Source: an uncultured Pelagibacteraceae bacterium (lineage in GTDB: Bacteria > Pseudomonadota > Alphaproteobacteria > Pelagibacterales > AG-422-B15). Taken from it: DNA of 40,661 nucleotides. The translations under genes were made by a program, and so were the position numbers. Positions 1 through 15,671 of the stretch are shown here, piece after piece. The notes beneath the pieces were generated by a model. It saw nothing but the letters and a program-made list of their open reading frames with translations. It ran no database searches and was not told the DNA's origin. Position 1 is the stretch's first letter. The number at the start of each line of letters is the position of its first letter. The DNA lies in contig CACFGR010000003.1 of the NCBI GenBank assembly GCA_902565955.1, positions 1 through 40,661 on the forward strand, written 5' to 3'.

Positions 1-1
1 T

Positions 2-3000
2 TTCCATACCCATTTGCATTGCTGCCATTGGGTCATTCATCATCATGTTTGGATCCATACCCATGGATGCACCCATATCATACATCGCCATAGGATCCAT
101 TGGTCCTGGCATCATACCGCCCATCATTGGATCCATCATTCCCATTGGCGCGCCTCCTGCCATTGGGTCCATCATTGGCATTCCTGGCATTCCCATAGGT
201 CCCATATCCATTGGTCCCATGCCCATCATTGGTCCCATATCCATTGGCATTCCTGGCATTCCCATTGGGCCCATGCCCTCCATACCAGGAAGCATAGACA
301 TATCCATATCCATCATTCCACCAAAGTCTGCAGGGCCAATCATTTCTGCTGTCATCATCGGCCCCATAAACATTTCACCTGCTTGCATTTGAGCTTGCAT
401 CATTCCTTGCATATCAGCCATCGAAGCCTGCATATCCACTTGTAATTGAGCAATCATATCTGCTCCCATTACATCTCCCATATCAGCCATGAAAGCGGCA
501 CCTTGATTACCCATCATTTGTGTCATACCGGCAGCCATCATGCCTGCCATCTCAGGATTTGCAGCAGCCATTTGACCCATAAACTCTCCAGCAAGGTCAG
601 CCATTCCACCTTGTGTAGCTAACTGTGCCATACCACTTGCTATGTTTGCTGCAAGCTCTGGGTTATTTGCAACTAGGTCGCCCGCAAATTCTGCGGCAGC
701 GCCTGGATCAAACTGAGCCATTCCAGCGGCAACTTGACCAGCTATCGCAGGATTGGCTTCGGCCATCGATCCTGCAATTGCACCTACGGCATCAGGCGCT
801 AGTTCAGCAACACCTGCGGCAACTAAAGTTGCGGCAGCAGGATTTGCACTTGCCATTGCACCTGCAACATCTCCAGCAAGAGCTGGGTCGATAGCAGCAA
901 GGTTACCTGCGATTTCTCCTGCAGCTGCAGGGTTAGCCTGCGCCATTCCACCCGCAAAAGCTCCAGCTGCATCGGGATTAGCAGCAGCTACATCTTGCAT
1001 AATTCCAACAGCAGCCTCTCCATCAGGAATAGCTGCTAAAACTCCACCTGCAACAGCACCAGCGGCGGCAGGATTTGATGTCATTGCTGCGTCAATTACT
1101 CCAGCAGCAACATCAGGATTATCAGCAACCATTGCGCCGACAACTGTGCCAGCAGCAACAGGTGCCATTTCAGCCACACCACCAGCAATATCGTTAACTA
1201 AATTTGGATCTGCTCCAACCATCTCCATTGCAACACCTGCTGCAACTTGTGGATTACCAGCAGCGGCTCCGCCAGCGATATCTCCTGCCATATCAGGATT
1301 CGCTTCCATCATGCCTACTGCAATTTCACCTGCTTGTTGTGGAGCACCCGCGGCCATACCGCCAGCAATCTCACCTACAAAATTTTCGGCCATATCAGGA
1401 TTGGCCATAGCAGCATCCATCATGATACCCGCCATGTCACCAGCAATATCAGGATCACCGACTGCCATACCTTGAGCAATTGCTCCAACTGCATTTCCTG
1501 CAAAATTTTCAACTAACGCATCAAGTTGTTCTGGGTTAAGATCTGGATTCGCCGTAGCAGCGTTTTCTGCAAACTCTGCGGCAAAATCAGGTGCCATTGC
1601 AACTTCCATCATTGCACCTGCAACGTCTCCTGCAACTTCAGGGGCTGCGTTTGCCATACCTGCAGCAGCCGCAGAGGCAGCAGCAGGATTAGCTTCCATC
1701 ATCGCACCAGCGGCTTCAGCAGCAAGAGCTGGATCAGCTTCTGCTATAGCGCCAGCTACAGCACCGGCAGCGCCTGGAACATTTTCAGCAACAGCGGCAG
1801 CCATATCAGCAGCACCATCTGGATTTGCTTCAACCATCGCACCGGCTACGTCACCAGCGGCACCAGGAGCCATTTGTGCAACACCTCCTGCAATATCTCC
1901 CATTAATTCTGGATTGGCATTAACCATATCTGTAGCAACTTGAGCAGCAATATTAGCATCACCTCTTGCAACTCCGCCAGCGATTGCACCAGCTGCATCA
2001 GGCGCAGCTTCCATCATTGCAGTCGCAGCATCAGCAGCCAATTCAGGAGCAGCATCTGCTAAACTTTGCGCTGCTAAACCTGCAGTATCAGGGTTTGCAG
2101 CAACCATTGCGCTTGCGGCGTCTGCAGCAATCTCAGGAGCGGCTTCTGCCATTGCTCCCATTGCAGCTCCTGCAGCAATTGGATTTGCTTCAGCCATTGC
2201 AGCAGCCATATCTGTTGCAGCTTCTGGATTTGCTTCAACCATTGCACCAGCAACATCACCAGCTGCACTAGGTGCAAACTCAGCAACACCGCCAGCAATA
2301 TCAGCTGCGGCATCTGGATTTGCAGCAGCCATAGCAGTTGCTATATCAGCAGCTTGTCCAGGGTCTCCAGCGGCCATGCCGCCAGCAATATCTCCTGCTA
2401 ATTCTGGATTAGCTGCAACCATCGCACCAGCAACATCAGCAGCTTGATCAGGTGCAGCGGCAGCAATTCCTTGAGCAATCCCTTGAGCGGCCTCAGGAGC
2501 AGCATCCATCATAGCGCCAGCAATTTCTCCAGCAATTTCTGGATTTGCTCCAGCCATTCCTTCAGCAATATCTCCAGCAACATCTGGATTAGCGGCAGCC
2601 ATAGCACCAGCAGCATCTGCAGCAAGATCAGGCAATGTATCTGCTATCGCGCCAGCAGTACCTTCAGCAGCCATTGGATTTGCTTCAGCCATAGCACCAG
2701 CAACGGCTAATGCAGCATCAGGGTTCAATTCAGCAACAGAACTCATCATATTATCAGCAGCACCGGGTGCAGTTTCTGCAAGAACGGCAGCCATTGTAGC
2801 TGTGGCTTCAGGGTTTGCTTCAATTAACGTGTTCGCAACATTTTCCATAGCGACAGGTGCGGCCATTGCAACTCCAGTAGCAATGTCACCCGCAATATCA
2901 GGATTAGCTGCAACCATCGCACCTGCAATATCAGCAGCAGCTTCAGGGTTAGCCATTGCCATTCCACCTGCGATATCAGCGGCAGCTTCAGGCGCAGCAG

Positions 3001-6000
3001 CGGCCATAGCATTTGCTGCATCAGCAGCAAGCTCTGGTGCGGCTTCCATCATTCCTTCTGCAGCCATTTGCGCAGCAGCAGGGTTGGCCTCAGCCATAGC
3101 AGCAGCAGCCTCAACGGCTAGTTCAGGATTACTCTCAGCAATAGCAGCAGCCATATCTCCAGCCATTTCAGGAGCAGCTTGAGCTACAGCGCCAGCCATA
3201 GCGGCAGCGGCTTCAGGTGCAGCTTCCATCATAGCTCCTGCGACATCAGCAACAGCGTCAGGATTTGCATTTGCCATTCCGCCTACAATTGCAGCAGCGG
3301 CATCTGGGTTTGCTTCAACTAGTGCGGTAGCAGCATCTGCAGCAGCTTCAGGTGCTTGAGCAGCAACGCCAGCAGCGATTGCTCCAGCGGCATCTGGATT
3401 AGCTTGGATCAATGCGGCAGCAGCTTCAGCAGCAGCTTCGGGTGCTTGAGCTGAAACAACATTTGCGATTGCTCCAGCTGCATTAGGATTAATCGCAGCC
3501 ATGTCTCCAGCAATATCAGCTGCCAAGTCTGGATCTGCGGCAGCAACAGTCGCGGCAATATTTGCTACAGCTCCTGCCATAGCTTCTGGGTTGACAGCGG
3601 CCATGTCAGCTGCAATATCTCCAGCAAGTTCTGGTGCGGCCTGAGCAACAGAAGTTGCGATTAGGGCAGCAGCGGCAGGATTGGCTTCAGCAAGTGAACC
3701 AGCCACATTCGCAGCAGCTTCAGGCGCAGCTTCCGCAACACCCGCAGCAATCATCCCAGCAGCTTGAGGTACAGCTTCTGCTAGCGCAGCAGCGGTATCT
3801 GCAGCAGCGCCAGGATCAACTTCTATTATTGCGGCAGTAATATCTTGAGCGGCTGCAGGATTAGCAGCAGTCATTGCAGTTGCAGCAGCAACTGCAGCTT
3901 CAGGGTTTGCATCTACAACGGCAGCCATTGCATCGCCAGCAGCAGCTGGTGCAATTTGTGCAACCCCTGTAGCAATATCATTTAGAGCTTCTGGATTGGC
4001 ATCGGCCATTGCTCCTATAACATCGCCAACAGCGTCAGGTGCGCTTCTTGCCATTCCACCTGCGATTGCTGAGGCAGCATCAGGTGCAGCTTCTGCCATT
4101 GCAACAGCAACATCAGCAGCCATTTCAGGATTACCACTTGCAATACCCGCAGCAACTGCGGATGCAGCTTCTGGTGCAGCTTCTGCCATTGCTGCAGCAG
4201 CCTGAGTTGCAATGTCAGTACTTCCGCCATCAAAGAAACCTGCATCGGCCACAACAGCAGCCATGCCTTGTGCTGCAGAAGCAGCAGCAGCAGGACTAGC
4301 TTCAGCCATTGCTGTAGCAGCAGCTACAGCTTGTTCAGGTGCAGACTCCATCAATGCACCAGCAATGTCTCCAGCAGCAGCTGGATTTGCTTCTGCCATT
4401 GCAGCTGCAAGTTCACCTGCAGCTTCAGGGTCATTCGAAATAAGTTCAGATGCAACAGATGCTGCAGCTTCTGGCGCAAATTGGGCGACTGCGGCAGCCA
4501 TGTCAGCAGCAGCGTCAGGGTTAGCATTAGCCATTGCAGCTGTTACTTCAGCAGCAAATTCTGGAATAGCAGCAGCTGTGCTTGCAGCGATTTGTGCAGC
4601 AGCTTCTGGGTTTGCCTCTGCTAATGCGAGAGCAGCGTCAGCGGCAACCTCTGGATTACCCGATGCAACTCCAGCAGCTATTACCCCCGATAATTCTGGT
4701 GCAGCTTCGGCAACAGCTCCGGCCACATCCGCAATAAGTTCAGGTGCAGCTTCGGCAAGTCCCGCCATCGCCTCACCAGCTGCAGCAGGGTTTGCTTCTG
4801 CCATTGCAGTTGCTATTTCAGCGGCAGCGCCTGGATCAGCGGCAGCCATTGCTCCCAACACTTCTCCAGCAGTTTCAGGTGCAACTTGTGCAACTTGTGC
4901 CGCCATGTCTGCATTAAAGTCTGCCATATCTTCCGGTGATACCCCAGGTATCTCAGCCATTTGTTCCATCATCTGACCTGCAATTTCACCTGCAGCTTCA
5001 GGATCAGCAGCCGCAACAGCGGTTGCAATGTTTGCTGTCATTTCAGCCATTTGTTCTGCAGGATCAAAATCTGCAGGGGCGCCAGGAATCTCTGCCATTT
5101 GCTCCATCATCGCTCCGGCAAGTTCTGCAGCCTGCTCCGGCGCAGCGGCTGTTGCTTGCGTAGCAATTGCAGTTGTCATATCAGCCATTTGTCCGGCCAT
5201 ATCAAATTCTTCAGGTACATTAGGAATGTCAGCCATAACTTCCATCATGGCTCCTGCTAAGTCTGCAGCTCCTTCTGGATCTGCCTGAACAGCAGCTGAC
5301 GCCATATTAGCAGTCATTCCAGCGCCAGTTTCAGCAAGCGCTTCAGGTTCAATTCCAGGTATCTCTGCCATTTGCTCCATCATCGTTCCAGCTAATTCAG
5401 CTGCGCCTTCAGGATCAGCGATAGTTGCTGCAGATGCAACGTTAGCTGTCATTACGGCAGCAGCTTCGGCAAGTGCGCCTTCGCTTGCATTACCGTCAAC
5501 GGCCGTCATAGCTTCTACCATTGCTCCAGCAACTTCTGCAGCAGCCTCAGGTACTGCACTTGCAACTTGGGTTGCAATTGCTGTTTGCATAGCTAATGCT
5601 TCATCTTGAGAAAAGTTTTCATTACCAGCAGCAACAGCTGCCATTTCACCTGCAATTTCCGTAGCGGCTTCCGGATTAACCTGAGCAACAGTTGCAGCAA
5701 TATTTGCAGCAGCACTTGGTGCAGCTTCAGCCATAGCAACGGCAGTTTCAGTAGCAAGTTCAGGTAATGCTTCACTTACAGCGCCAACAGCAGCGCCTGC
5801 AGTTGCAGGATTTGCGTCAGCCATTGTTGCGGCTGCTTCAACTGCTTGTTCTGGTGCAACTTCTGCAATTGCTCCCATAACTCCCTCAGCAGTTCCAGGA
5901 GCTGACTCAGCGATTTGTTCAGCAATATCTGCAATTGCTTCAGGATTTGCTTCCATCATTGCGCCAGCAATATCACCAGCTAATACTTGTGCAACTTCAG

Positions 6001-7510
6001 CTGCAGCGCCTTGCGCTTCAGCAATTGTTTCTTGAGCAGCAGCTTGTACTTCAGTTATTGCGGCTTGAGCTTGAGCTACTAAGTTTGGATCGTCAGATGT
6101 TAAATCTGCTTGTAAATCTGCCCTTGCCTCAGCTACTTGAGCTTGTGCTTCAGCCTGAGCAGCAGCAACTTCTTGCGCGGCATTTGCTTGTGCAGCAACA
6201 GCAACACCTGTTGCAATATCAGCGGCAGCTTCCGGATCAGCAGCGGCCATTTCTGTTGCTACTTCTGCAGCAACTTCAGGATTACCTTGTGCAACTCCGC
6301 CAGCAATTGCAGCGGCAGCCTCTGGAGCAGCTTCTTGCATGGCCATAGCAGCATCACCCGCTTGGTCAGGTGCAAGTTCAGCCATCACTTCAGCAGCTGC
6401 TCCCGCAGCAGCTGGTGCAACTTCAGCCATAGCGGCAGTTGCTTCAATTGCTTGCTCTGGAGCAGCTTCAATAATTGCTTCTGTAGCAAGTGCAGCAGCG
6501 GCTGGATTCGCCTCAGCTATATCCGCGCATAATTCCACAGCTCCATCAGGATTTGATGCCATCATTTCTTGAACCATTTCCGCAGCTGCTTCTGGATTAG
6601 ATGCAGCGGTACCAGCAATAATTTCAGCGGCAGCGTCAGGGTTCATTTCAATCATCTCTGCAATTATTTCTTGTGTTGCGGCTTGCGATGCTTCAAGCGC
6701 GGCCTCTTGACCTGCTTGGTTATTGTCTAAAAGTGTATCTTGTAAATCAGTTTGAATGTCAACAATGCCTTCTTGACCGACTTCAGAAAATTGTGTTTGT
6801 GCTTCTGCTTGCGCTTCTGCATTAGCTTGAGCAGTTTCTTGATTAACTTCAGCTATAGCGGCTTGCGCAACTCCGGACGCAACACCTGCGGCAACAGCGG
6901 CAGCCGCTTCTGGCGCAGCTTGAGCCATTGCAGTTGCGACTTGTGAAGCAGATTCAGGGTCAACAGCAGCTACTGCACTGGCTGCTCCGCTTGCAGCTGC
7001 TGGGTTTGCAGCAGCCATTGATGCAGCAGCATCAACAGCATGTTCAGGTGCTGCTTGCGCAACGGCACTCGCAACTGCTCCTGCAGCAGCTGGAGCAACC
7101 TCAGCTATGGCGGCAGCCATGTCTGCGGCACCTTCAGGATTTATTTGTGTAAGAGATGCGGCAACAGCACCAGCGGCAGCTGGAACATTTTGCACTACAT
7201 CCGAGGCAACTTCCTCGGCAATGTCTGGCGCTGCACTTGCCATAGCGGCTGCAGTTGCATTTGCAGTAGCAGGAGCGGCAGCGGCAATAGCACCTGCGAT
7301 TTCAGCAGCTTGTTCAGGTATAGCTTGTGCTGTAACTGTAGCTATTTGTTGTGCAGCTGCAGGATTTGCTTGCACTACGGCAGCAAGCATCTCATCTGAA
7401 TTATCATTATTTGCTGCGTAATTTTGTATTAGTGCCTGTTGTTCCTCTTGTGACCCTGCTGCGGCGACCTGTTGAAAAAATTCTTGAGCTTCTGCTGGAC
7501 TTACTGGCAT
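2..7510 (-). CDS. Giant acidic Ala-rich repeat protein (>=2503 aa, 3' end outside window); candidate type I-secreted surface protein
   Basis: ATG at 7510 (MPVSPAEAQEFFQQVAAAGSQEEQQALIQ...) preceded by purine-rich AAGGGAAAGGGA. The same frame still reads ...PMAAMQMGME at base 2. The ORF track lists nothing in this frame, as expected if no stop occurs before the edge. Repeats look like MAEANPAAAGDIAGA. Confidence 0.93.
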   Translation of the reverse strand, partial: MPVSPAEAQEFFQQVAAAGSQEEQQALIQNYAANNDNSDEMLAAVVQANPAAAQQIATVTAQAIPEQAAEIAGAIAAAAPATANATAAAMASAAPDIAEEVASDVVQNVPAAAGAVAASLTQINPEGAADMAAAIAEVAPAAAGAVASAVAQAAPEHAVDAAASMAAANPAAASGAASAVAAVDPESASQVATAMAQAAPEAAAAVAAGVASGVAQAAIAEVNQETAQANAEAQAEAQTQFSEVGQEGIVDIQTDLQDTLLDNNQAGQEAALEASQAATQEIIAEMIEMNPDAAAEIIAGTAASNPEAAAEMVQEMMASNPDGAVELCADIAEANPAAAALATEAIIEAAPEQAIEATAAMAEVAPAAAGAAAEVMAELAPDQAGDAAMAMQEAAPEAAAAIAGGVAQGNPEVAAEVATEMAAADPEAAADIATGVAVAAQANAAQEVAAAQAEAQAQVAEARADLQADLTSDDPNLVAQAQAAITEVQAAAQETIAEAQGAAAEVAQVLAGDIAGAMMEANPEAIADIAEQIAESAPGTAEGVMGAIAEVAPEQAVEAAATMADANPATAGAAVGAVSEALPELATETAVAMAEAAPSAAANIAATVAQVNPEAATEIAGEMAAVAAGNENFSQDEALAMQTAIATQVASAVPEAAAEVAGAMVEAMTAVDGNASEGALAEAAAVMTANVASAATIADPEGAAELAGTMMEQMAEIPGIEPEALAETGAGMTANMASAAVQADPEGAADLAGAMMEVMADIPNVPEEFDMAGQMADMTTAIATQATAAAPEQAAELAGAMMEQMAEIPGAPADFDPAEQMAEMTANIATAVAAADPEAAGEIAGQMMEQMAEIPGVSPEDMADFNADMAAQVAQVAPETAGEVLGAMAAADPGAAAEIATAMAEANPAAAGEAMAGLAEAAPELIADVAGAVAEAAPELSGVIAAGVASGNPEVAADAALALAEANPEAAAQIAASTAAAIPEFAAEVTAAMANANPDAAADMAAAVAQFAPEAAASVASELISNDPEAAGELAAAMAEANPAAAGDIAGALMESAPEQAVAAATAMAEASPAAAASAAQGMAAVVADAGFFDGGSTDIATQAAAAMAEAAPEAASAVAAGIASGNPEMAADVAVAMAEAAPDAASAIAGGMARSAPDAVGDVIGAMADANPEALNDIATGVAQIAPAAAGDAMAAVVDANPEAAVAAATAMTAANPAAAQDITAAIIEVDPGAAADTAAALAEAVPQAAGMIAAGVAEAAPEAAANVAGSLAEANPAAAALIATSVAQAAPELAGDIAADMAAVNPEAMAGAVANIAATVAAADPDLAADIAGDMAAINPNAAGAIANVVSAQAPEAAAEAAAALIQANPDAAGAIAAGVAAQAPEAAADAATALVEANPDAAAAIVGGMANANPDAVADVAGAMMEAAPEAAAAMAGAVAQAAPEMAGDMAAAIAESNPELAVEAAAAMAEANPAAAQMAAEGMMEAAPELAADAANAMAAAAPEAAADIAGGMAMANPEAAADIAGAMVAANPDIAGDIATGVAMAAPVAMENVANTLIEANPEATATMAAVLAETAPGAADNMMSSVAELNPDAALAVAGAMAEANPMAAEGTAGAIADTLPDLAADAAGAMAAANPDVAGDIAEGMAGANPEIAGEIAGAMMDAAPEAAQGIAQGIAAAAPDQAADVAGAMVAANPELAGDIAGGMAAGDPGQAADIATAMAAANPDAAADIAGGVAEFAPSAAGDVAGAMVEANPEAATDMAAAMAEANPIAAGAAMGAMAEAAPEIAADAASAMVAANPDTAGLAAQSLADAAPELAADAATAMMEAAPDAAGAIAGGVARGDANIAAQVATDMVNANPELMGDIAGGVAQMAPGAAGDVAGAMVEANPDGAADMAAAVAENVPGAAGAVAGAIAEADPALAAEAAGAMMEANPAAASAAAAGMANAAPEVAGDVAGAMMEVAMAPDFAAEFAENAATANPDLNPEQLDALVENFAGNAVGAIAQGMAVGDPDIAGDMAGIMMDAAMANPDMAENFVGEIAGGMAAGAPQQAGEIAVGMMEANPDMAGDIAGGAAAGNPQVAAGVAMEMVGADPNLVNDIAGGVAEMAPVAAGTVVGAMVADNPDVAAGVIDAAMTSNPAAAGAVAGGVLAAIPDGEAAVGIMQDVAAANPDAAGAFAGGMAQANPAAAGEIAGNLAAIDPALAGDVAGAMASANPAAATLVAAGVAELAPDAVGAIAGSMAEANPAIAGQVAAGMAQFDPGAAAEFAGDLVANNPELAANIASGMAQLATQGGMADLAGEFMGQMAAANPEMAGMMAAGMTQMMGNQGAAFMADMGDVMGADMIAQLQVDMQASMADMQGMMQAQMQAGEMFMGPMMTAEMIGPADFGGMMDMDMSMLPGMEGMGPMGMPGMPMDMGPMMGMGPMDMGPMGMPGMPMMDPMAGGAPMGMMDPMMGGMMPGPMDPMAMYDMGASMGMDPNMMMNDPMAAMQMGME
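173..265. repeat. Exact short duplications within the Met/Gly/Pro-rich domain
   Basis: cattggcattcctggcattcccat at 173-196 and 242-265 (MGMPGMPM); ggtcccatatccattgg at 198-214 and 231-247. Confidence 0.9.
600..7395 (-). repeat. Degenerate ~45-bp / 15-aa tandem coding repeat array, consensus approx. (M/V)AxA(N/A/D)PEAA(A/G)(D/E)(I/V)A(G/A)(A/G)
   Basis: Pro recurs every 15 residues, e.g. MAEANPAAAGDIAGA-LMESAPEQAVAAATA-MAEASPAAAASAAQG; roughly 130 units by rough estimate, with several insertions. Confidence 0.9.
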
Positions 7511-7541
7511 TAAATATTCCCTTTCCCTTATTTATAATAAA

Positions 7542-8891
7542 TCAAGATGACGTATTGAATGTTCCTTCCCTAGAATTATCTTCAACCATTTCAGGCTGGA
7601 GTAGATCTATTACATCTAAAACTTCATAAACTGATGTTAATAAAGACATGCTATCGTCAGAAAGATCCTTGAGAGAGCTTTCAAGAGCATCTTCTGCTGC
7701 TAGGACTGCAGCAGCATCTGTTTGATCGGCGGCTCTTTCTTTCTGTGCTATCGTAAGTAACTCTTTTGCTATTGTTGCTTCATTCTCACTGTAGGAGAGC
7801 ATTGTCCTTGCATTGGCATATTCAATCCAAGCGTCTTTTGCAGCCTTGATCGTATCACGCTCTTTGAGTGCTAAGTCATTTATTGCTCTTTCTAGTGCTG
7901 AACGATCATTTAAATATCCTGGCATCTCCATGTATAAACCAGATATTGGAAATTCAACTGTTACTTTCATTTGTTCTTCGTAATGATTACCAGTTGTATG
8001 TGATGCATCGTCTTTATATGAAAGCTTTGCTTCTGCGTCTACAGTGGGTCCAAAATTAGCTAAAGCAGAACTGAGATCGTTCTTTGCAATGTCAACATCC
8101 ATTTTAGCAATTCGTAAGTCTCTATTATTTGCAAGCGCCATAACAACTGTAGCTTCCATAGATTTAGGCATCATACTGATGACTGATGGCGCTAGCCTTG
8201 GTTTGCGTAATTGATTAACATTAACATCGTCTACTTTAAATAGTTTCTCATAGGTAAACTTTGCTGATTTAAAACTTTTTTCGTCACTTATTAGTGTTTT
8301 TTGTGCGTTAGCAAGTTGCCTTTTGGCTTTAAGAACGTCTGAAGCTAATCCAGAGCCAACCTGAACTCTTATTTCTTCTTGTCCAGAAGTTTGACGAGTG
8401 TTTGCTTCTGCTGATATGGAAGCTTCCAACTTCTCATTAGCTTTAATTAATCCAAGGTAAGCATCTGCAGCCTCTATCAACAAATCATTCCTAGCAGTAG
8501 TTAATTCAAGTTCTGATTTTTTTAACTCTAGTCTTTTATTTGATATTTCAGACATTGTTGCGCCAGAGTCCATTATTTTTTGTTTCCAAGTCAAGTCATG
8601 AGTGTCGAAATTTAATTGTGAGTTAGAACTTGCTGTTGCAGCGTCATACTTATCATTTCTTCCTGATTCATACTTCCATGAAAGATCAGGAGCATAAGCA
8701 AGAATTGAATCTGTTATATCCCTTCCAGCTTCTTCAACTTCTTTTTTTGCATTGATTACATCTTCATGGCTACTTAAAACAACATCAACCATTTCAGATA
8801 AAGTTTCTGATTTAGAAGGAAGAATTAATAACATGAATGCAATAAATGAATACATCATGTAACAAATAAATTGCTTGAATTTTATCATCAT
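7542..8891 (-). CDS. TolC-family outer membrane channel
   Basis: ~450 aa with a signal-peptide-like N-terminus and two OEP-like halves (EAADAYLGL...DVLKAKRQL; AKDAWIEY...AVLAAEDAL). Start moved from 8933 to ATG 8891 because GAGG lies upstream of it and the predicted -10 box overlaps the longer start. Confidence 0.85.
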   Translation of the reverse strand: MMIKFKQFICYMMYSFIAFMLLILPSKSETLSEMVDVVLSSHEDVINAKKEVEEAGRDITDSILAYAPDLSWKYESGRNDKYDAATASSNSQLNFDTHDLTWKQKIMDSGATMSEISNKRLELKKSELELTTARNDLLIEAADAYLGLIKANEKLEASISAEANTRQTSGQEEIRVQVGSGLASDVLKAKRQLANAQKTLISDEKSFKSAKFTYEKLFKVDDVNVNQLRKPRLAPSVISMMPKSMEATVVMALANNRDLRIAKMDVDIAKNDLSSALANFGPTVDAEAKLSYKDDASHTTGNHYEEQMKVTVEFPISGLYMEMPGYLNDRSALERAINDLALKERDTIKAAKDAWIEYANARTMLSYSENEATIAKELLTIAQKERAADQTDAAAVLAAEDALESSLKDLSDDSMSLLTSVYEVLDVIDLLQPEMVEDNSREGTFNTSS

Positions 8892-8925
8892 AATAACCTC
8901 ATCAAATAAATTGGACTCAACGAAG

Positions 8926-8954
8926 ATTATCAATCAATTATGGGAGATTTACAA
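8926..8954 (-). promoter_or_regulatory. Putative sigma70 promoter for tolC-giant protein operon
   Basis: TTGTAA-N17-GATAAT on the minus strand, ~35 bp upstream of the tolC ATG. Confidence 0.55.
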
Positions 8955-9027
8955 TGCTTTTATCTCTAAAAATAAGTAGAAATTGGTGATAAAATATATG
9001 GATATTACTGGTTTTTTTATTAAACGA

Positions 9028-10743
9028 CTAAATATCAGCGTATACGTGAGTTTCTTTTTTGGCTCCTGGATGAGTTACCGCGCCCGAAGCCGCAGAGCCA
9101 ACAGTTTGGCTATATTTCCATAATGTACCCGAATTGAAGTCTGTTTTGCGATCTTTCCATCGCTCTTTTCTTTTAGCCAAATCGCTTTCATTAACATTTA
9201 GGGTTATCTCTCCCTTATCTGCATCGAGAAGAATTTCATCACCATCCTCAATCAATGCGATTGGACCACAGACTGCCGCTTCTGGCGATACATGGCCCAC
9301 GCAAAAACCCCTAGTAGCGCCACTAAACCTACCATCCGTAATTAAAGCAACTTTATCTCCCATCCCTTGTCCATAAATTGCAGCTGTCGTAGATAACATT
9401 TCCCTCATCCCTGGACCTCCTTTGGGACCTTCATATCGTATAACAAAAACATCGCCTTCTTTATAATTATTGTTTTTTACACATTCAAATGCGTCTTCTT
9501 CACAATCAAAGCAGATTGCATTACCTTTAAATTTTAGTTTTTCCATCCCAGCAACTTTTACAATTGCCCCCTCTGGAGCAAGATTCCCCTTTAATCCAAC
9601 AACTCCTCCTGTGGGACTCAAAGGTTTGTTGTATGGTCGTATTACCTTTTGATTAATATTAAATTTTACACTCTCTAAATTTTCAGCAATAGTTTTTCCC
9701 GTCACAGTTAAACAATCGCCATGAATATAACCACCTTCATATAAAGTTTTAATAATTATTGGCACACCTCCAGCCTCATAAACATCTTTAGCTACATATT
9801 GACCGCCCGGTTTCAGATCAGCTAGATACGGAGTACGTTTAAAAATGTCAACAACGTCATCCAGATGAAATTTTATTCCACACTCGTGAGCTATCGCTGG
9901 TAAATGTAGTGCTGCATTTGTAGAGCCACCGGTAGCAGCAACAATAGTTGCGGCATTTTCAAGAGATTTTTTGGTAACTATATCTCTGGGTCTTATATTA
10001 TTTTTAATTAAATACATGACTTGGTTTCCAGACTCGTATGCGTATTTATCTCTTTCTTCATAAGGAGCGGGCGCACCAGAAGAGTATGGAAGCGCTAAAC
10101 CAATTGCTTCTGAAACACACGCCATGGTATTAGCTGTAAATTGACCACCACAAGCACCAGCGCTCGGACAGGCAACGCATTCAAGTTCATGCAGTTCTTC
10201 TTCAGTAGCGTTTCCAGATGAAAATTTGCCAACTGCCTCGAAAACATCAACTACTGTTACATCTTTGCCTTTATACTTTCCAGGTAATATGCTGCCCCCG
10301 TACATAAAAACACTTGGTACATTTAATCTACACATCGCCATCATTAAGCCTGGAAGCGATTTATCACAGCCAGCTAATCCAACAATTGCATCATAACAAT
10401 GACCTCTTACAGTCAGCTCAGTTGAGTCTGCTATTACTTCACGTGACACCAATGATGACTTCATGCCTTGATGACCCATGGCAATGCCATCTGTTACAGT
10501 AATTGTGCAAAATTCGCGCGGCGTTCCCTCTGCCTCAGTAACTCCTTTTTTTACAGATTGTGCTTGGCGCATCAGAGCTATGTTGCATGGTGCAGCCTCA
10601 TTCCATGTAGAAACTACCCCTACAAATGGCTTATTTATGTCATTTTCATCCATTCCCATAGCATAATAATATGATCGATGAGGAGCTCTTTCTGGTCCAA
10701 CTGACACGTGACGACTTGGCAATTTGTTTTTATTAAACTTCAT
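9028..10743 (-). CDS. ilvD: Dihydroxy-acid dehydratase
   Basis: [35 protein letters not shown] and TDGRFSG motifs. Confidence 0.97.
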
Positions 10744-13386: not shown

Positions 13387-13793
13387 TAGTTTTTTTTGTT
13401 TTCTGTGCTAATGATGATTTTTGATGAATTTAATCTCTCTTGTATAATTTTTGTTAGCTCTTCATTAATGATTTGATCTAACTTTGACTGCGGCAATGAA
13501 GCTACTGCATCACGTACCGCCTTTTTTATTTGCTCCTCATTTACTGTATCTGCAATACTAATATCTAATTTAGATCTTTCCTCTTCAAAATTTTTTATTT
13601 TCTTATCATTAATTGGATCAGATAATTCAAGTATATCTATCTTCTCATCTTCTTTTTTTACCTCTTCATCAATTGGATTTGTGAGCTCAATTACATCTTT
13701 AGGCAGTCCTTCATCCTGACGTACAGATTTTTCGGACATCATATTTTTGATAGCGTCTAGTATCTCTTCTGTATTTGAACTATTTTTATTCAT
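13386..13793 (-). CDS. popZ: PopZ-like polar organizing protein (DUF2497-like)
   Basis: N-terminal TEEILDAIKNMMSE resembles PopZ MEEILASIRRIISE; DVIELT/DILELS motifs, acidic linker and helical C-terminus; sits between pcm and valS as in other alphaproteobacteria. Confidence 0.65.
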   Translation of the reverse strand: MNKNSSNTEEILDAIKNMMSEKSVRQDEGLPKDVIELTNPIDEEVKKEDEKIDILELSDPINDKKIKNFEEERSKLDISIADTVNEEQIKKAVRDAVASLPQSKLDQIINEELTKIIQERLNSSKIIISTENKKN

Positions 13794-13819
13794 TTTAATA
13801 CTTTTATAGCGATAAGTAG

Positions 13820-14470
13820 TTAGAAACTAAAGCTATTTTTTTTAATGAACATGCTTAAAACCGGTATTGAGCAGTTAAATAACTTTTGTTCACTAATTGA
13901 ACGCCCATTCTTTTTGAATAATTTGGCTGAACAGATTTCTCCTTCTTGAACAATAGCAAAAAGCCTTCCTTCTTCATCTAATTGATCAATTATATTTAGT
14001 GGAACTTCTTGTATAGCACCTTCAATTATAATTGCATTAAAAGGTGATTGTTCGTTATATCCTTTCACAATTTCATTCTTAATGAAGACAACATTATTTA
14101 TATTGTTTTTTTTTATTGCATTTTCAGAATTATTAAGAAGCTGCTCATTTTCTTCAACAACGATCACTGTTTCCGCTTGATTAGATAAAATTGCACTTAG
14201 ATAACCGGTAGTTGCTCCTAATATCAAAACGTTCTCGTTAGCTTTCAAGTTTATGCTTAGAGCTATTTGGGCGATAAGGCTTGGCTTCAAAATTGTCCTT
14301 TTATCCTTTAATATGATATTTTTTTCAACATATGACATTTCTTTCATAGCCTCGGGCATAAAGTCATTTCTATCAAGGGAATAAAAAACGGAAAGCAGTT
14401 CCTCACTCATGCCATTTATTGGCTTTATTTGTCCTTCAATCATATTTTTATTGAGTATTTCTTCTGCCAT
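13820..14470 (-). CDS. pcm: Protein-L-isoaspartate O-methyltransferase family protein
   Basis: NMIEGQIKP, VLILGATTGYLSAIL, PFNAIIIEGA, QLDEEGRL; conserved position upstream of popZ/valS. Confidence 0.88.
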   Translation of the reverse strand: MAEEILNKNMIEGQIKPINGMSEELLSVFYSLDRNDFMPEAMKEMSYVEKNIILKDKRTILKPSLIAQIALSINLKANENVLILGATTGYLSAILSNQAETVIVVEENEQLLNNSENAIKKNNINNVVFIKNEIVKGYNEQSPFNAIIIEGAIQEVPLNIIDQLDEEGRLFAIVQEGEICSAKLFKKNGRSISEQKLFNCSIPVLSMFIKKNSFSF

Positions 14471-14564
14471 AATCTTATTGATACGTTTATATAGTATATG
14501 ATTACTTACTTTTCAAAAGTATTCACTTTTTGTGATTATTAATGATATATAAAACTTGCATTTA

Positions 14565-14638
14565 GGCCACGTGGCGGAATGGTTACGCAGAGGACTGCAA
14601 ATCCTTGTATACCGGTTCGATTCCGGTCGTGGCCTCCA
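14565..14638 (+). tRNA. tRNA-Cys(GCA)
   Basis: GGCCACG...CGTGGCC-T-CCA acceptor stem, anticodon loop CT-GCA-AA, GGTTCGATTCC T-loop. Confidence 0.97.
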
Positions 14639-14645
14639 TTCATTA

Positions 14646-15671
14646 TTAAATTAGATGCTTTTTAAGCGATTGAATAATTCTATCTGCTTGATCATCACGT
14701 ATCCATGAATGAAAACTTTTTATCATTGTAGGTGAAAAATTTGGTAACAATTGATTGAGTTTACTTTTCATTGACCTTATCGATGCACCTTTTTCATGCG
14801 AAGCAAGATAAGCGATGTAAGATTGTGGATATTCTGGTTGCAATCTTATTAATTTTTCTGAATATTTTTGTGCATCCTTCATTTTTTCGTCGATAAAGTT
14901 GAATCTCCAAAGCTCAAAATATGTTCTCCATTGCCCATAAATATCCTCGTATAATTCAAGTGCTCTGTCCATCTCTTGATATGCTCTCTTTTTCTCATCG
15001 ATCTGAAATAAAGATGAGCCAAATAATCGACGTCCATGTGCAAACTTCTTATTTAACTTGATTGAGTTATAAGAGTGGTTCAAGGCAAGGTCAAAATTAC
15101 CACCATAATAATATGATAACCCAAAAGCAAATTGACAAAGAAAATTATTTTCATTTAATGAAACTGAACTTCTTGCAAGATTTAAAAGTGTTTTTCTAAC
15201 TTTGTTTGGATCTCTTACATTAAACATCCAGAGTTTATCGGCGTAGGACATGGCAATTTTTGAAATAGTAATTGCCAAGTCTTCTTTTGGTATCGAGCTA
15301 CTAAGTTTGTCGTATGAATTTTTTGATAATAAAAATCTAATTGTTCTTTTATCTTTTTGGTTTTTTGATTTTCTTATTACTCCATTTTCCTCAAGATATT
15401 TTAACCTTCTCCAAAGAGTTCTCTCTGGAGACTGAGTAAAATATTGAATGTCATAGAATGAAAGACCTTTATAAAAATTCACATAAAGTCTAAATACAAT
15501 CTCTAAATCCAATAAACTTGTAAGCGCTAGTGATTTAAGTACTTTAAATAACCCCCCGTATAAAAAGCTAAATACAGCCTCATCAAGTAAATTTACATTT
15601 TTAGATACTTGATCACTTCTTCCAAATCCAAATTCATAAATATTGTCTTTTTGTACTGTCATTGAGAACAT
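14646..15671 (-). CDS. MarR-like winged-helix plus TPR-repeat protein
   Basis: TLWRRLKYLEENGVIRKSKNQKDKRTIRFLLS is a MarR-type helix and wing; C-terminal half has TPR-like units (FGLSYYYGGNFDLALNHSYNSIKLN; AYQEMDRALEL). Confidence 0.65.
   Translation of the reverse strand: MFSMTVQKDNIYEFGFGRSDQVSKNVNLLDEAVFSFLYGGLFKVLKSLALTSLLDLEIVFRLYVNFYKGLSFYDIQYFTQSPERTLWRRLKYLEENGVIRKSKNQKDKRTIRFLLSKNSYDKLSSSIPKEDLAITISKIAMSYADKLWMFNVRDPNKVRKTLLNLARSSVSLNENNFLCQFAFGLSYYYGGNFDLALNHSYNSIKLNKKFAHGRRLFGSSLFQIDEKKRAYQEMDRALELYEDIYGQWRTYFELWRFNFIDEKMKDAQKYSEKLIRLQPEYPQSYIAYLASHEKGASIRSMKSKLNQLLPNFSPTMIKSFHSWIRDDQADRIIQSLKKHLI

What the first reader, a model, noticed from the sequence alone, without database searches (positions are those of the whole stretch)
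2..8954. Giant 15-residue-repeat protein with a dedicated TolC: candidate undescribed type I-secreted surface structure
Seen: a sigma70-like promoter, then tolC, a 31-bp gap, and a >=7.5-kb ORF with no N-terminal signal peptide that the ORF track misses because it runs off the edge. Established: type I secretion substrates lack Sec signals, carry C-terminal signals, are often giant and acidic, and lie beside TolC/ABC/MFP genes; the well-known ones (LapA, SiiE, RTX adhesins) are built of beta-rich Ig-like or GGxGxD repeats. Inference: this protein instead looks all-alpha, with no RTX, cadherin or Ig motifs in 2500 aa, so it may be a new class of surface filament, coat or adhesin. A streamlined genome would need a strong reason to keep it.
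Basis: partly seen in the sequence, partly recalled or inferred. Interest (0 to 1): 0.9.

Follow-up and report, generated by a model that had tools for sequence, protein, structure and literature searches.

The report
Giant secreted helical-repeat protein, SAR11
One lineage of SAR11, among the ocean's most abundant bacteria, spends over one percent of its tiny genome on a dedicated export machine and its roughly 300-kDa cargo, an extremely acidic alanine- and methionine-rich repeat protein that matches no described family and whose job outside the cell is unknown.

Summary
Window 2..7510 (-) is the first 2,503 codons of a gene cut by a contig end, 31 bp after a TolC-family gene. Three relatives carry the whole locus: tolC, giant gene (2,958-3,176 aa), ABC exporter without C39 domain, HlyD-type adaptor (above curated cut-off), stand-alone inverse-autotransporter barrel, unknown signal-peptide protein. 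Our genome holds the same downstream genes on contigs C58 and C49.

The cargo has three parts:
- about 2,280 residues of 15-residue amphipathic-helix units (30-residue super-period), with fixed copy number and under strong purifying selection;
- a 517-632-residue module of 31-38% methionine;
- a variable tail, with RTX nonapeptides in 6 of 9 tails judged.

Net charge is about -400, and G015 and G049 have no lysine before the tail.

No Pfam, NCBIfam or PDB family covers the body. A scan of 1.84 billion proteins found only fragments of the same gene plus weak motif sharers. The N-terminus was found only in one SAR11 genus, and the cluster's adaptor in 33 of 47 genomes there.

It is a type I secretion substrate with a new passenger class.

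The parts
8926..8954 (-). Sigma-70-like hexamer pair upstream of tolC (TTGTAA-17-GATAAT)
   Evidence: 9 of 12 matches. The region has 6 such sites against 6.6 +/- 2.1 in shuffles, so this is not above chance. The position is compatible with a start at ATG 8891.
7542..8891 (-). Cluster-specific TolC-family outer-membrane channel (449 aa from ATG 8891; the open frame extends to TTG 8933)
   Evidence: Pfam OEP 1.8e-34 with two stretches. TIGR01844 at 113.5 bits, below cut-off. Signal-peptide-like N-terminus. Orthologues at 74-86% identity in 10 of 24 genus genomes. Directly upstream of the giant gene in 14 of 14 loci. A second, unrelated 428-aa OMF lies on C8.
7511..7541 (-). 31-bp spacer with an RBS-like purine run before the giant gene's ATG
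   Evidence: sequence read directly.
7370..7510 (-). N-terminal leader of the giant protein (residues 1-47): acidic, no Sec-type signal
   Evidence: residues 1-47 are mostly invariant across 9 orthologues. No NCBIfam or Pfam match.
659..7369 (-). Repeat body (residues 48-2284): about 140 units of the 15-residue consensus A-[N/A]-P-[E/D]-A-A-[A/G]-[D/E]-[I/V]-A-[G/A]-A-[M/V]-A-E. It is interrupted by two Q/A/E-rich linkers (about 6644-6880 and 5951-6175) and a zone of 45/46-residue triple units (about 4796-5590).
   Evidence: Proline spacing and autocorrelation. Consensus from 100 units. 3.75-residue hydrophobic harmonic, z 59. No indels within the 15-residue arrays across 9 orthologues: every gap block lies in a non-repeat linker stretch or the 45/46-residue zone, all before residue 760. 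Orthologous units are 92-97% identical, paralogous units 41%. Four-fold sites differ 27-48% while protein identity is 89-97%. DNA repeats have diverged, with periods of 45 and 90 nt at 67-80% matches.
2..658 (-). Start of the Met/Gly/Pro/Asp-rich low-complexity module (residues 2285-2503, 31% Met), cut by the contig end
   Evidence: In complete orthologues the module is 517-632 aa at 31-38% Met. Contig ends fall in or just before it in G016, G024, G012, G041, G023 and G046.

Best explanation
The window holds the first 2,503 residues of a protein of about 3,000 residues (284-309 kDa in the three complete orthologues). It is the substrate, and probably the only one, of a dedicated type I secretion system in one SAR11 (Pelagibacteraceae) genus.

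**Shown**
- Conserved gene order: tolC, substrate, ABC exporter without a C39 or C39-like domain, HlyD-type adaptor, stand-alone inverse-autotransporter beta-barrel, unknown signal-peptide protein.
- A substrate of three modules: (1) a fixed-length array of about 140 fifteen-residue amphipathic units with a 30-residue super-period, each unit individually conserved; (2) a species-variable low-complexity module of 517-632 residues that is 31-38% methionine; (3) a variable tail of 145-290 residues, with RTX nonapeptides in most alleles and a conserved acidic C-terminal end.
- Net charge of about -390 to -430, 4-14 Lys+Arg in all, one Cys, 2-3 His, 1-4 Trp.
- Strong purifying selection on the body.
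- Presence in marine RNA libraries.

**Inferred**
- The chain is exported unfolded, C-terminus first, through ABC-MFP-TolC.
- Outside the cell the RTX block (where present) binds Ca2+, and seawater cations screen the huge negative charge. The units then fold into short helices paired as hairpins, stacking into a long alpha-solenoid-like rod.
- The methionine-rich flexible segment and the variable tail lie at the end that leaves the cell first.
- The product is an extracellular structural element, either a cell-associated polyanionic fibre or coat or a shed one. It is not an Ig-type adhesin or a cytolysin.
For: **Locus**
- Complete loci in G015, G017 and G049, and a partial one in G021.
- The own-genome counterpart lies on C58 and C49. 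Its 102-aa fragment aligns to four orthologous tails.
- MFP: TIGR01843 at 319 bits against a cut-off of 208.65.
- ABC: best matches are T1SS families LssB and PrtD. Our copy has only ABC_membrane and ABC_tran.
- tolC is upstream in 14 of 14 loci.
- RTX (PF00353) is above cut-off in 6 of 9 judged tails.
- No other RTX protein occurs in 5 genomes that carry the gene.

**Helical units**
- N-P-E/D start; hydrophobic positions 9 and 13; acidic positions 4, 8 and 15.
- 3.75-residue harmonic power 390 against a shuffle mean of 6.3, and 74 at 2.14 residues. The hydrophobic moment is maximal at 90-100 degrees.

**A real gene under selection**
- GC3 is 0.245, against 0.235-0.266 in neighbours, with the same codon choice.
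- 27-48% of four-fold sites differ while the protein is 89-97% identical.
- Copy number is fixed.

**RNA libraries.** Contigs of 4 runs from 4 studies cover 26-29 of 30 bins at 90% identity or more.

**Composition.**
Against: - No experiment shows secretion.
- The gene is not contiguous in our genome. The join C3-C58-C49 is inferred from synteny.
- ABC and TolC score below the curated cut-offs of the T1SS subfamilies.
- No NCBIfam model at E <= 0.01 recognises the tail as a secretion domain.
Helix, hairpin and rod are inferred from sequence periodicity alone.
- A helical repeat protein might fold in the cytoplasm, and type I export needs an unfolded chain. The cation-screening idea that answers this is untested.
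- No retention module or LapG was found, so attachment to the cell is open.
- RNA-library contigs cannot exclude DNA carry-over and give no expression level.
- Synonymous divergence is lower than in tolC, so some gene flow within the genus may add to the conservation.
Confidence: 0.7

Rival explanations
1. The protein's main job lies in the methionine-rich module. It would be an extracellular or surface sink for Cu(I)/Ag(I) or for oxidants, with Met as a sacrificial scavenger. The helical body would be a cheap, nitrogen-poor, photo-oxidation-resistant stalk that holds the module away from the cell. This overlaps with the best explanation and adds a function to it.
For: - 301-376 Met per protein; 517-632-residue modules at 31-38% Met, rich in MxM, MM and MxxM.
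- The body almost lacks the other photo-oxidisable residues (Trp, Tyr, His, Cys).
- Passages of PMC3847284 say the methionine-rich regions of CueO, PcoA and CopA, and the Met-rich loop of CopC and PcoC, form or serve copper sites.
Against: - The module lacks His (0 in the two modules counted), which often accompanies Met in copper sites.
- Its sequence and even its composition drift between species: the samples range from 6-7% Met in the first 120 residues of the G011 and G020 contigs (G011 Pro/Gly/Tyr-rich, G020 Gly/Asn/Glu-rich; both contigs start inside or after the module) to 36% in G021. That fits a disordered spacer better than a tuned site.
- No copper genes were looked for or seen next to the cluster.
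- Met is costly for an organism reported to need reduced sulphur (recalled, not from a call).
Confidence: 0.15
2. It is a LapA-type RTX adhesin: a fibre plugged into its TolC by an N-terminal retention module, used to attach to particles or other cells, and released by a LapG-type protease.
For: - Giant size, T1SS linkage and a C-terminal RTX block in most alleles.
- The variable C-terminal region is where such adhesins carry ligand-binding domains (passages of 10.1101/2025.09.30.679566).
Against: - There is no room for a retention module. The 15-residue units start at residue 48, and no NCBIfam or Pfam match exists.
- No Ig-like extenders.
- Peptidase_C93 (LapG) is absent in 5 of 5 carrier genomes, including one 100% and one 90% complete, with a ringing control.
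- The ABC lacks the N-terminal C39-like domain.
- Copy number is fixed and the body is more conserved than the ends. The preprint reports the reverse for RTX adhesins.
Confidence: 0.08
3. It is the subunit of a surface layer or coat secreted by type I secretion, as RsaA is in Caulobacter (an alphaproteobacterial precedent, recalled).
For: - An ABC without a C39-like domain, plus a dedicated OMP.
- High conservation and fixed length.
- Signs of wide presence in RNA libraries.
Against: - No sequence similarity to any S-layer family.
- A chain with about -400 net charge and a disordered module of 500+ residues is an odd lattice former.
- The search for Pelagibacter, S-layer and cryo-electron tomography listed four papers that, by title and abstract start, are on other subjects; their text was not read.
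- Self-association was not tested.
Confidence: 0.08
4. It is an RTX cytolysin or other toxin aimed at grazers or competitors.
For: RTX nonapeptides and T1SS linkage. P0004 gives a partial match to NF033943 'RTX family hemolysin' at 44 bits against a cut-off of 1000, over the nonapeptide stretch only.
Against: - No hydrophobic pore-forming region and no enzymatic domain in about 3,000 residues.
- Almost no lysine available for acylation.
- The HlyC search found nothing in 5 genomes, but its control was silent too, so it is uninformative.
Confidence: 0.02
5. It is not secreted or not functional: a cytoplasmic low-complexity protein or an assembly artefact that merely sits beside transport genes.
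For: Low-complexity appearance. The gene is cut at a contig end in 14 of the 17 genomes with an N-terminal match (contig ends confirmed for six relatives). Three word-index searches were empty.
Against: - A 2,503-codon open frame in a 33% GC genome.
- Host-like GC3 and codon use.
- Unit-by-unit conservation with diverged synonymous sites.
- Identical gene order in independent assemblies.
- RTX blocks in orthologous tails.
Confidence: 0.03

Closest known systems
RTX adhesins of the LapA / MpIBP / FrhA type (definition read in passages of bioRxiv 10.1101/2025.09.30.679566; MpIBP from the listing and abstract start of PMC5550230)
   Same: A giant, acidic, repeat-built protein. It lies beside its own type I secretion genes. 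It has C-terminal RTX nonapeptides (in most alleles) and a C-terminal secretion end, and a variable region near the C-terminus.
   Different: - The body is built of 15-residue alpha-type units, not Ig-like beta-sandwich extenders.
- No retention module, no LapG, and an ABC without a C39-like domain.
- Repeat number is fixed, and the body is more conserved than the ends.
- It carries a methionine-rich module of 500+ residues.
Protease/lipase/S-layer type I systems (PrtDEF, AprDEF, RsaDEF with RsaA); recalled knowledge apart from the NCBIfam matches
   Same: An ABC exporter of about 550 aa without an N-terminal peptidase-like domain; its second-best NCBIfam match is PrtD. An HlyD adaptor and a dedicated outer-membrane protein. 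The substrate has an RTX block and an acidic-then-hydrophobic extreme C-terminus. RsaA is an alphaproteobacterial precedent for a structural surface protein exported this way.
   Different: The substrates of those systems are roughly 50-100 kDa and beta-rich. This cargo is about 300 kDa and helical-repeat plus disordered. No sequence similarity outside the nonapeptides.
Giant cell-surface proteins of marine picoplankton such as Synechococcus SwmA/SwmB (recalled; PMC4949707 seen only as a search listing)
   Same: An abundant oligotrophic marine cell investing in a very large exported repeat protein. Giant-protein clusters are counted among flexible genomic islands (passage of PMC4033161).
   Different: No sequence relation was tested or seen. 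A different phylum and a different repeat type. A motility role is implausible for SAR11.
Methionine-rich copper-handling segments (CueO, PcoA, CopA, PcoC, CopC; passages of PMC3847284; CopM from the listing of PMC4335983)
   Same: Clusters of MxM, MM and MxxM in a compartment outside the cytoplasm.
   Different: Those segments are tens of residues inside folded proteins, often with His. Here the module is 517-632 residues of low complexity without His (0 in the two modules counted) and varies between species.
Short arrays of the same 15-residue Pro-spaced unit in other proteins (P0037 RTX protein, P0022 CARDB surface protein, P0019, P0029 and P0035 MFS transporter tails, P0058)
   Same: Pro every 15 residues with an [N/D/A]-P-[E/D] start and a hydrophobic i, i+4 pattern. 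P0037 couples such units to RTX repeats.
   Different: Between 4 and 17 unit gaps, not about 140. Normal Lys/Arg content. E-values of only 1e-16 to 1e-4 at 26-34% identity. No Pfam model covers the unit in the four of them that were scanned (P0037, P0022, P0019, P0035), so the motif itself is unnamed.

Membership tests
Type I secretion substrate (generic) | Encoded beside an ABC exporter, an HlyD-family adaptor and a TolC-family channel | tested here: met
   Three complete loci and one partial. Our own C58 and C49. MFP above the TIGR01843 cut-off. tolC upstream in 14 of 14 loci.
Type I secretion substrate (generic) | No N-terminal Sec/Tat signal; uncleaved C-terminal secretion signal | tested here: inconclusive
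   The N-terminus is acidic without a hydrophobic core (read; no predictor run). Five tails share F-V-F, D-K-I, N-P and an acidic-then-hydrophobic end. No NCBIfam secretion-domain model matched at E <= 0.01. Our own C-terminus is known only from the unjoined C58 fragment.
RTX protein family | Tandem GGxGxD calcium-binding nonapeptides (PF00353) near the C-terminus | tested here: met
   Above cut-off in G017 and in G047, G001, G020, G058 and G011 (5 of 5). Absent from the G015, G049 and G021 tails. Not testable for the window's own protein: the window part has none and the C58 fragment is only 102 aa.
RTX adhesin (LapA-like), as defined in 10.1101/2025.09.30.679566 | N-terminal retention module of 127-196 aa | tested here: not met
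   The 15-residue units begin at residue 48. No NCBIfam or Pfam match at the N-terminus. Caveat from the preprint: sequence tools sometimes miss these modules, and no structure model could be made.
RTX adhesin (LapA-like) | Tandem Ig-like (beta-sandwich) extender domains, variable in number between homologues | tested here: not met
   No BIg or cadherin Pfam match. Alpha-type 3.75-residue periodicity dominates. No copy-number variation among 9 orthologues.
RTX adhesin (LapA-like) | LapG-type periplasmic protease (Peptidase_C93) for release | tested here: not met
   Found in 0 of 5 carrier genomes (completeness 100, 90, 83, 80 and 62%). The control rang in Caulobacter.
RTX cytolysin | HlyC-type acyltransferase and a hydrophobic pore-forming region | tested here: inconclusive
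   PF02794 in 0 of 5 genomes, but no control genome rang. No hydrophobic domain was recognised by Pfam or NCBIfam.
T1SS ABC exporters with an N-terminal C39 peptidase or C39-like domain (HlyB/LapB type) | An extra N-terminal domain of about 130 aa | tested here: not met
   Our ABC (543 aa translated) has only ABC_membrane and ABC_tran. The G015 orthologue aligns to LssB model positions 144-669 of 696, so it lacks the first ~143.
Inverse autotransporter (gene 5 of the cluster) | IAT beta-domain followed by a secreted passenger | tested here: not met
   The beta-domain is met (PF11924, 104 and 103 bits). The protein is only 313-358 aa with no passenger. One to three matches per genome (most open frames 296-361 aa) occur in 36 of 46 genus genomes, also in genomes where the cluster's adaptor was not found (G008, G018, G050).
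HEAT/ARM-type alpha-solenoid repeats | Stacked helical hairpins forming a superhelix | not testable with these tools
   No Pfam repeat family matched. PDB sequence searches were empty. Only the 30-residue super-period and the helical periodicity point this way.

The most novel reading that the evidence does not exclude
A SAR11 genus makes an extracellular structure not yet described: a fixed-length rod of about 70 helical hairpins carrying about -400 net charge. It would stay unfolded in the cell and fold only when seawater cations screen its charge, giving a salt-driven export ratchet that can even do without RTX repeats, as in the G015, G049 and G021 alleles. At its far end it carries several hundred methionines that trap Cu(I) or oxidants or catch hydrophobic molecules. 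With 0-3 Lys in the roughly 2,890 residues ahead of the tail, and only 4-14 Lys+Arg in all, it would give almost no tryptic peptides, so standard metaproteomics would miss it. That could explain why it has gone unnoticed.
Probability: 0.2. Interest if true: 0.9.

Novelty: new variant of a known kind. Interest (0 to 1): 0.75.

Why it matters
**Why it is surprising.** SAR11 is a textbook case of genome streamlining and, as far as I recall, is not known for large secreted structures. Here one of its genera keeps a six-gene, 15.2-kb cluster (G015 locus), which is more than 1% of a 1.1-1.3 Mb genome. Its 9-kb cargo gene is conserved residue by residue across species, and its sequence turns up in RNA libraries from several ocean studies.

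**What is new.** The cargo extends the known range of type I secretion passengers from beta-rich Ig/RTX designs to a helical 15-residue repeat. The cargo has no basic residues to speak of, and its 500+-residue, one-third-methionine module is unlike anything in the literature I searched.

**Consequences if it coats or surrounds the cell.**
- It bears on how phages, grazers, trace metals and dissolved organic matter meet some of the most abundant cells in the sea.
- It bears on sulphur, nitrogen and carbon budgets. The protein is very poor in side-chain nitrogen (0.09 per residue against a proteome median of 0.34) and rich in sulphur.

**Practical points.**
- The near-absence of tryptic sites predicts that it is missing from existing metaproteomes.
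- Assemblies break inside the gene, which makes presence or absence calls from draft genomes misleading.

Tried and rejected
**Foreign origin of the GC-rich gene: rejected.** GC is 0.48-0.535 in the four 2-kb bins covering bases 1-8000, against 0.30-0.37 in the sixteen bins from 8001 to 40000. GC3 (0.245) and codon choice equal the neighbours', and the excess lies in GC1 and GC2, from Ala, Gly and Pro codons.

**'Accessory gene present in half the genomes': rejected as first read.**
- The N-terminus was found in 16 of 46 genus genomes, and in 5 of 10 near-complete ones.
- In the 5 near-complete 'negatives', the essential neighbour valS is missing (3) or cut at a contig end (2).
- The valS 3' end is found in only 27 of 46 genomes.
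- The cluster's MFP is found in 32 of 46.
- Contig starts in G047, G001, G020 and G011 lie inside the low-complexity module.
- True absence at the syntenic site was seen only in G008 and G009.

**Pfam hits judged artefacts of the repeat and composition.** XPC-binding scored 57 bits summed, but 0 stretches passed on their own. ApoLp-III scored 17.7 bits against a cut-off of 36.3.

**Searches that returned nothing or could not be run**
- Word-index protein searches were empty three times. They did not even return the orthologues, and two were capped at 8000 candidates, so they say nothing.
- PDB sequence searches: nothing, or E = 5.
So there was no model and no fold search.
- Complex prediction was not used. 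I make no binding claim, and I did not want to use it as a stand-in for the closed fold tool.
- HlyC search: uninformative, because the control was silent.
- Rfam on 7400-9200: no match.

**RNA data not used as evidence**
- The shares of 8-16% of words in 24 runs are small.
- Depths along the locus were not used to rank tolC against the giant gene, because the tool forbids it and the giant gene is more conserved between species.
- Bins without cover are not interpreted.

**Literature.** Ten searches found no description of this protein.
- Term look-ups in PMC7318151 and PMC3448164 found 0 occurrences of the terms tried: secretion, TolC, giant and hemolysin in both, plus RTX and adhesin in the first, and 'largest gene' and repeat in the second.

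**IAT barrel as a cluster-specific anchor: not supported.** Paralogues are widespread in the genus.

Full report
**What is in the window.** The minus strand of 2..7510 is one open frame of 2,503 codons. It starts at ATG 7510 and has no stop before base 2. The window is bases 1-40661 of contig C3 in a 67-contig, 867-kb, 61.7%-complete genome, so the gene is cut by a contig end.

Thirty-one bases upstream, after an RBS-like AAGGGAAAGGGA, ends a TolC-family gene (7542..8933). Its likely start is ATG 8891, behind GAGG, which gives a signal-peptide-like N-terminus. It matches Pfam OEP at 1.8e-34 and has TIGR01844 as best NCBIfam match, below cut-off.

The region has 6 such sites against 6.6 +/- 2.1 in shuffles. 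Further upstream lie an ilvD-family dehydratase and valS.

**The repeat.**
- In the first 2,150 residues, 98 of 126 gaps between successive prolines are exactly 15.
- Identity autocorrelation peaks at lag 30 (0.358), then 15, 45 and 60. Shuffles never exceed 0.20.
- One hundred units give the consensus A-[N/A]-P-[E/D]-A-A-[A/G]-[D/E]-[I/V]-A-[G/A]-A-[M/V]-A-E. Large hydrophobic residues sit at positions 9 and 13, and acids at 4, 8 and 15.
- The hydrophobicity spectrum of residues 900-2150 is dominated by the fourth harmonic of 15 (3.75 residues): power 390 against a shuffle mean of 6.3 (z about 59), compared with 74 at 2.14 residues. The mean unit's hydrophobic moment peaks at 90-100 degrees per residue.

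Asn/Asp-Pro-Glu/Asp is a textbook helix N-cap start (established knowledge, recalled). I therefore read each unit as a helix of about 12 residues and each 30-residue pair as a hairpin.

The array is interrupted by two Q/A/E-rich linkers and by a zone of 45/46-residue triple units (IPG/IPN at residues 717, 762, 808 and 854). At the DNA level the repeats have diverged, with periods of 45 and 90 nt at 67-80% matches.

**Composition.** The window protein is 35.6% Ala, has 343 Asp+Glu against 3 Lys+Arg, and has no Trp and almost no Cys, His or Tyr. Among 723 crude ORFs of the genome it has the lowest Lys+Arg fraction, almost the lowest side-chain nitrogen (0.089 against a median of 0.335), and almost the highest sulphur, Ala and Met.

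GC is 0.48-0.535 in the 2-kb bins covering the gene and 0.30-0.37 in the bins from 8001 onward. GC3 (0.245) and synonymous codon choice match the neighbours (0.235-0.266), so composition explains the GC, not foreign origin.

The last ~220 residues in the window turn into a Met/Gly/Pro/Asp-rich low-complexity stretch of 31% Met.

**The rest of the gene and the secretion genes.** A search with the TolC found 74-86% identical orthologues in 10 of 24 genomes of the same genus, several of them about 7.4 kb from a contig end like ours. Three relatives have the locus whole: G015, G017 and G049. The gene order is:
1. tolC;
2. the giant gene (2,958, 3,176 and 3,058 aa);
3. an ABC exporter of about 552-555 aa;
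4. an adaptor of 405-407 aa;
5. a protein of about 320-360 aa;
6. a protein of 316-331 aa.

G021 shows giant C-terminus, ABC, adaptor.

The adaptor passes the curated cut-off of TIGR01843, the type I HlyD family (319 bits against 208.65). The ABC's best matches are the type I families LssB and PrtD, below their cut-offs and without the first ~143 model positions. Our own copy has only ABC_membrane and ABC_tran.

Gene 5 is an inverse-autotransporter beta-domain without a passenger (PF11924, 104 bits). Gene 6 has a signal peptide, invariant cysteines and no family.

In our own genome the same genes lie on two small contigs. C58 holds a 102-aa C-terminal fragment open at the contig end, then the ABC, then the adaptor's first 160 residues. 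C49 holds the adaptor's last 179 residues, then the barrel, then gene 6. The fragment aligns with four orthologous tails at 28-39% identity, sharing F-V-F, D-K-I, N-P and an acidic end of the D-S-D-F-T-x-V type. The join C3-C58-C49 is therefore very likely, but it is not shown.

**Modules beyond the window.** In the complete proteins the Met-rich module is 517-632 residues at 31-38% Met, giving 301-376 Met per protein. It is built of motifs such as MGPMMGPDPMMMG and has no Lys, His, Cys or Trp. Contig ends fall in or just before it in G016, G024, G012, G041, G023 and G046, and contigs that begin upstream of the ABC gene start in it. Only 3 of the 17 genomes with the N-terminus have the gene whole.

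The module's sequence and composition vary between species, from 36% Met in G021 to a Pro/Gly/Tyr-rich version in G011.

The tail of 145-290 residues that follows is the least conserved part. RTX nonapeptides (PF00353) are above cut-off in G017 and in all 5 further tails examined: G047, G001, G020, G058 and G011. They are absent from the tails of G015, G049 and G021. That is 6 of 9 judged, and our own fragment is too short to judge.

No other RTX protein was found in 5 genomes that carry the gene. The system therefore has no other RTX-type candidate substrate there.

The complete proteins weigh 284-309 kDa, with a net charge of about -386 to -434. In G015 and G049 there is no lysine before the tail.

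**Conservation.** Across six species pairs-wise, 27-48% of four-fold degenerate sites in the giant gene differ while the protein stays 89-97% identical. tolC shows 55-69% and 70-85%. Among 9 orthologues there are no indels within the 15-residue arrays: every gap block lies in a non-repeat linker stretch or the 45/46-residue zone, all before residue 760, and one apparent later gap is a contig end. Orthologous units are 92-97% identical, while units within one protein are 41% identical on average.

So the array is old, has a fixed length, and each unit has its own conserved identity. This is the reverse of the pattern described for RTX adhesins, where extender number varies widely and the ends are conserved (passages of 10.1101/2025.09.30.679566). 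The lower synonymous divergence relative to tolC leaves room for some gene flow within the genus.

**Distribution.**
- The N-terminal 260 residues were found in 16 of 46 other genomes of the genus, 0 of 13 in the family's other genera, and 0 of 341 in the sister family.
- A pattern scan of 185,579 species genomes gave 14 loci. All their record titles say uncultured Pelagibacteraceae, i.e. SAR11. All 14 have tolC directly upstream.
- HMMER against 1.84 billion representative proteins gave 72 hits. The 4 hits at E <= 1e-30 are fragments of 82-175 aa at 78-100% identity, evidently of this same gene.

Apparent absences are mostly assembly gaps. In the five near-complete 'negatives', valS is missing or cut at a contig end. 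The adaptor orthologue is present in 33 of 47 genomes and in 8 of 10 near-complete ones. Four 'negative' genomes have the giant's low-complexity module and tail at a contig start.

True absence at the syntenic site was seen in G008 and G009. There valS-ilvD is followed by unrelated genes on the other strand, and the adaptor is not found either.

**Expression.** Twenty-four marine metatranscriptome runs from 12 studies hold 8-16% of the sampled words. Contigs of four runs from four studies, laid at 90% identity or more, cover 26-29 of the 30 bins of window 1-9000. The tool warns that DNA can be present in RNA libraries and that depths must not be ranked. I take this only as consistent with transcription.

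**What it is not.**
- No retention module fits the N-terminus, because the units start at residue 48. No Ig-like domain was found. LapG was found in 0 of 5 carrier genomes with a ringing control. It is therefore not a member of the LapA-type adhesins as defined in the preprint read.
- No pore-forming or enzymatic domain was found. The HlyC search was uninformative.
- No S-layer family matched.
- PDB sequence searches were empty.
- The same Pro-spaced 15-residue unit occurs in short arrays (4-17 unit gaps) in an RTX protein, a CARDB surface protein, MFS transporter tails and others. No Pfam model covers it in the four of them that were scanned. The unit is thus an unnamed, wider motif, and this protein is by far its largest known array.

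**Mechanism and function.**
- *Shown:* the operon, the modules, the conservation and the RTX blocks.
- *Inferred:* export C-terminus first by the ABC-adaptor-TolC machine, and folding outside the cell.

Because three alleles lack RTX repeats and the chain carries about 400 excess negative charges, I propose that cation screening in seawater contributes to folding and to the export ratchet, as Ca2+ does for RTX blocks. This is untested.

The most likely product is an elongated polyanionic fibre, with a flexible methionine-rich segment and a variable tip at the end that emerges first. Whether it stays on the cell is open. Functional readings, in falling order of my belief, are:
1. a structural coat or brush;
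2. a copper or oxidant sink through the Met module (Met-rich segments serve copper sites in CueO, PcoA, CopA, PcoC and CopC; passages of PMC3847284);
3. a particle or cell adhesin;
4. an S-layer.

As recalled from the literature, not from a call, SAR11 cultures need reduced sulphur, glycine and a pyruvate or alanine source. The three commonest special residues here (Ala, Gly, Met) map onto those needs, which I cannot explain.

**Novelty.** Ten literature searches, and term look-ups in two SAR11 comparative-genomics papers, found no description.

I rate it a new variant of a known kind. The secretion system and the RTX end are classical. The passenger, a fixed helical 15-mer array plus a module of 500+ residues that is one-third Met, almost free of basic residues, is not.

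A practical corollary is that the body has virtually no tryptic sites, so standard proteomics would miss it.

Noticed in passing
G000:C49:2347-3330 (L060) and genus-wide: Inverse-autotransporter beta-barrels without an evident passenger (most open frames 296-361 aa) give 1-3 matches per genome in 36 of 46 genomes of the genus (37 of 47 with the window's own). They also occur in genomes where the cluster's adaptor was not found (G008, G018, G050). One paralogue always follows the adaptor gene. What a passenger-less intimin-type barrel does in a streamlined planktonic cell is unexplained.
   Followed up: partly
G000:C49:546-1425 (L060); L055 and L056 about 13400-15300: Directly after the cluster, our genome has small ORFs with weak APS-kinase (3.7e-8) and ATP-sulfurylase/cytidylyltransferase-like matches. 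In G008 and G009, which lack the cluster, the same site next to ilvD carries a 613-631-aa ORF whose start reads like a GTPase-type sulfate adenylyltransferase (read by eye and not scanned). Sulphur-activation genes beside a protein with 300+ methionines may or may not be coincidence.
   Followed up: no
L053 (G047:C5 end) and L054 (G045:C1 end): Two independent assemblies end inside valS at nearly the same point (query residues ~551-578 of 879). That is about 4 kb before the giant gene. The reason for the shared break point is unknown.
   Followed up: no
P0019, P0029, P0035, P0042: MFS-type transporters carry C-terminal tails of several hundred residues built of the same Pro-spaced 15-residue acidic unit, in pairs such as ...SPD-A-DVAVAVVEA-VPDSAAEVA.... 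The motif is not in Pfam and seems to be a wider unnamed repeat.
   Followed up: partly
P0037: A 1,479-aa low-Ala, Lys-containing protein combines an N-terminal run of 15-residue Pro-spaced units with RTX nonapeptides: PF00353 at 1.1e-24 and 11 GGxGxD motifs. It may be a second, smaller family of type I substrates using this unit. Its organism and gene context are unknown.
   Followed up: partly
window 13000-40661: Five tRNA genes: Cys 14565, Asn 15738, Arg 20745, Pro 23022, Glu 31766. Gene orientation switches near 24.1-24.6 kb and again near 30.4-30.6 kb. The 2-kb GC skew values are positive or near zero between about 24 and 30 kb and negative on both sides. The rest looks like ordinary densely packed genes. 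They were not annotated further.
   Followed up: no
G000:C8:29818-32339: A second, unrelated TolC-family gene (428 aa, 20% identical to the cluster's TolC) lies next to a weak HlyD-like match. It is presumably a general efflux system, and it was matched in many other genomes of the genus.
   Followed up: no
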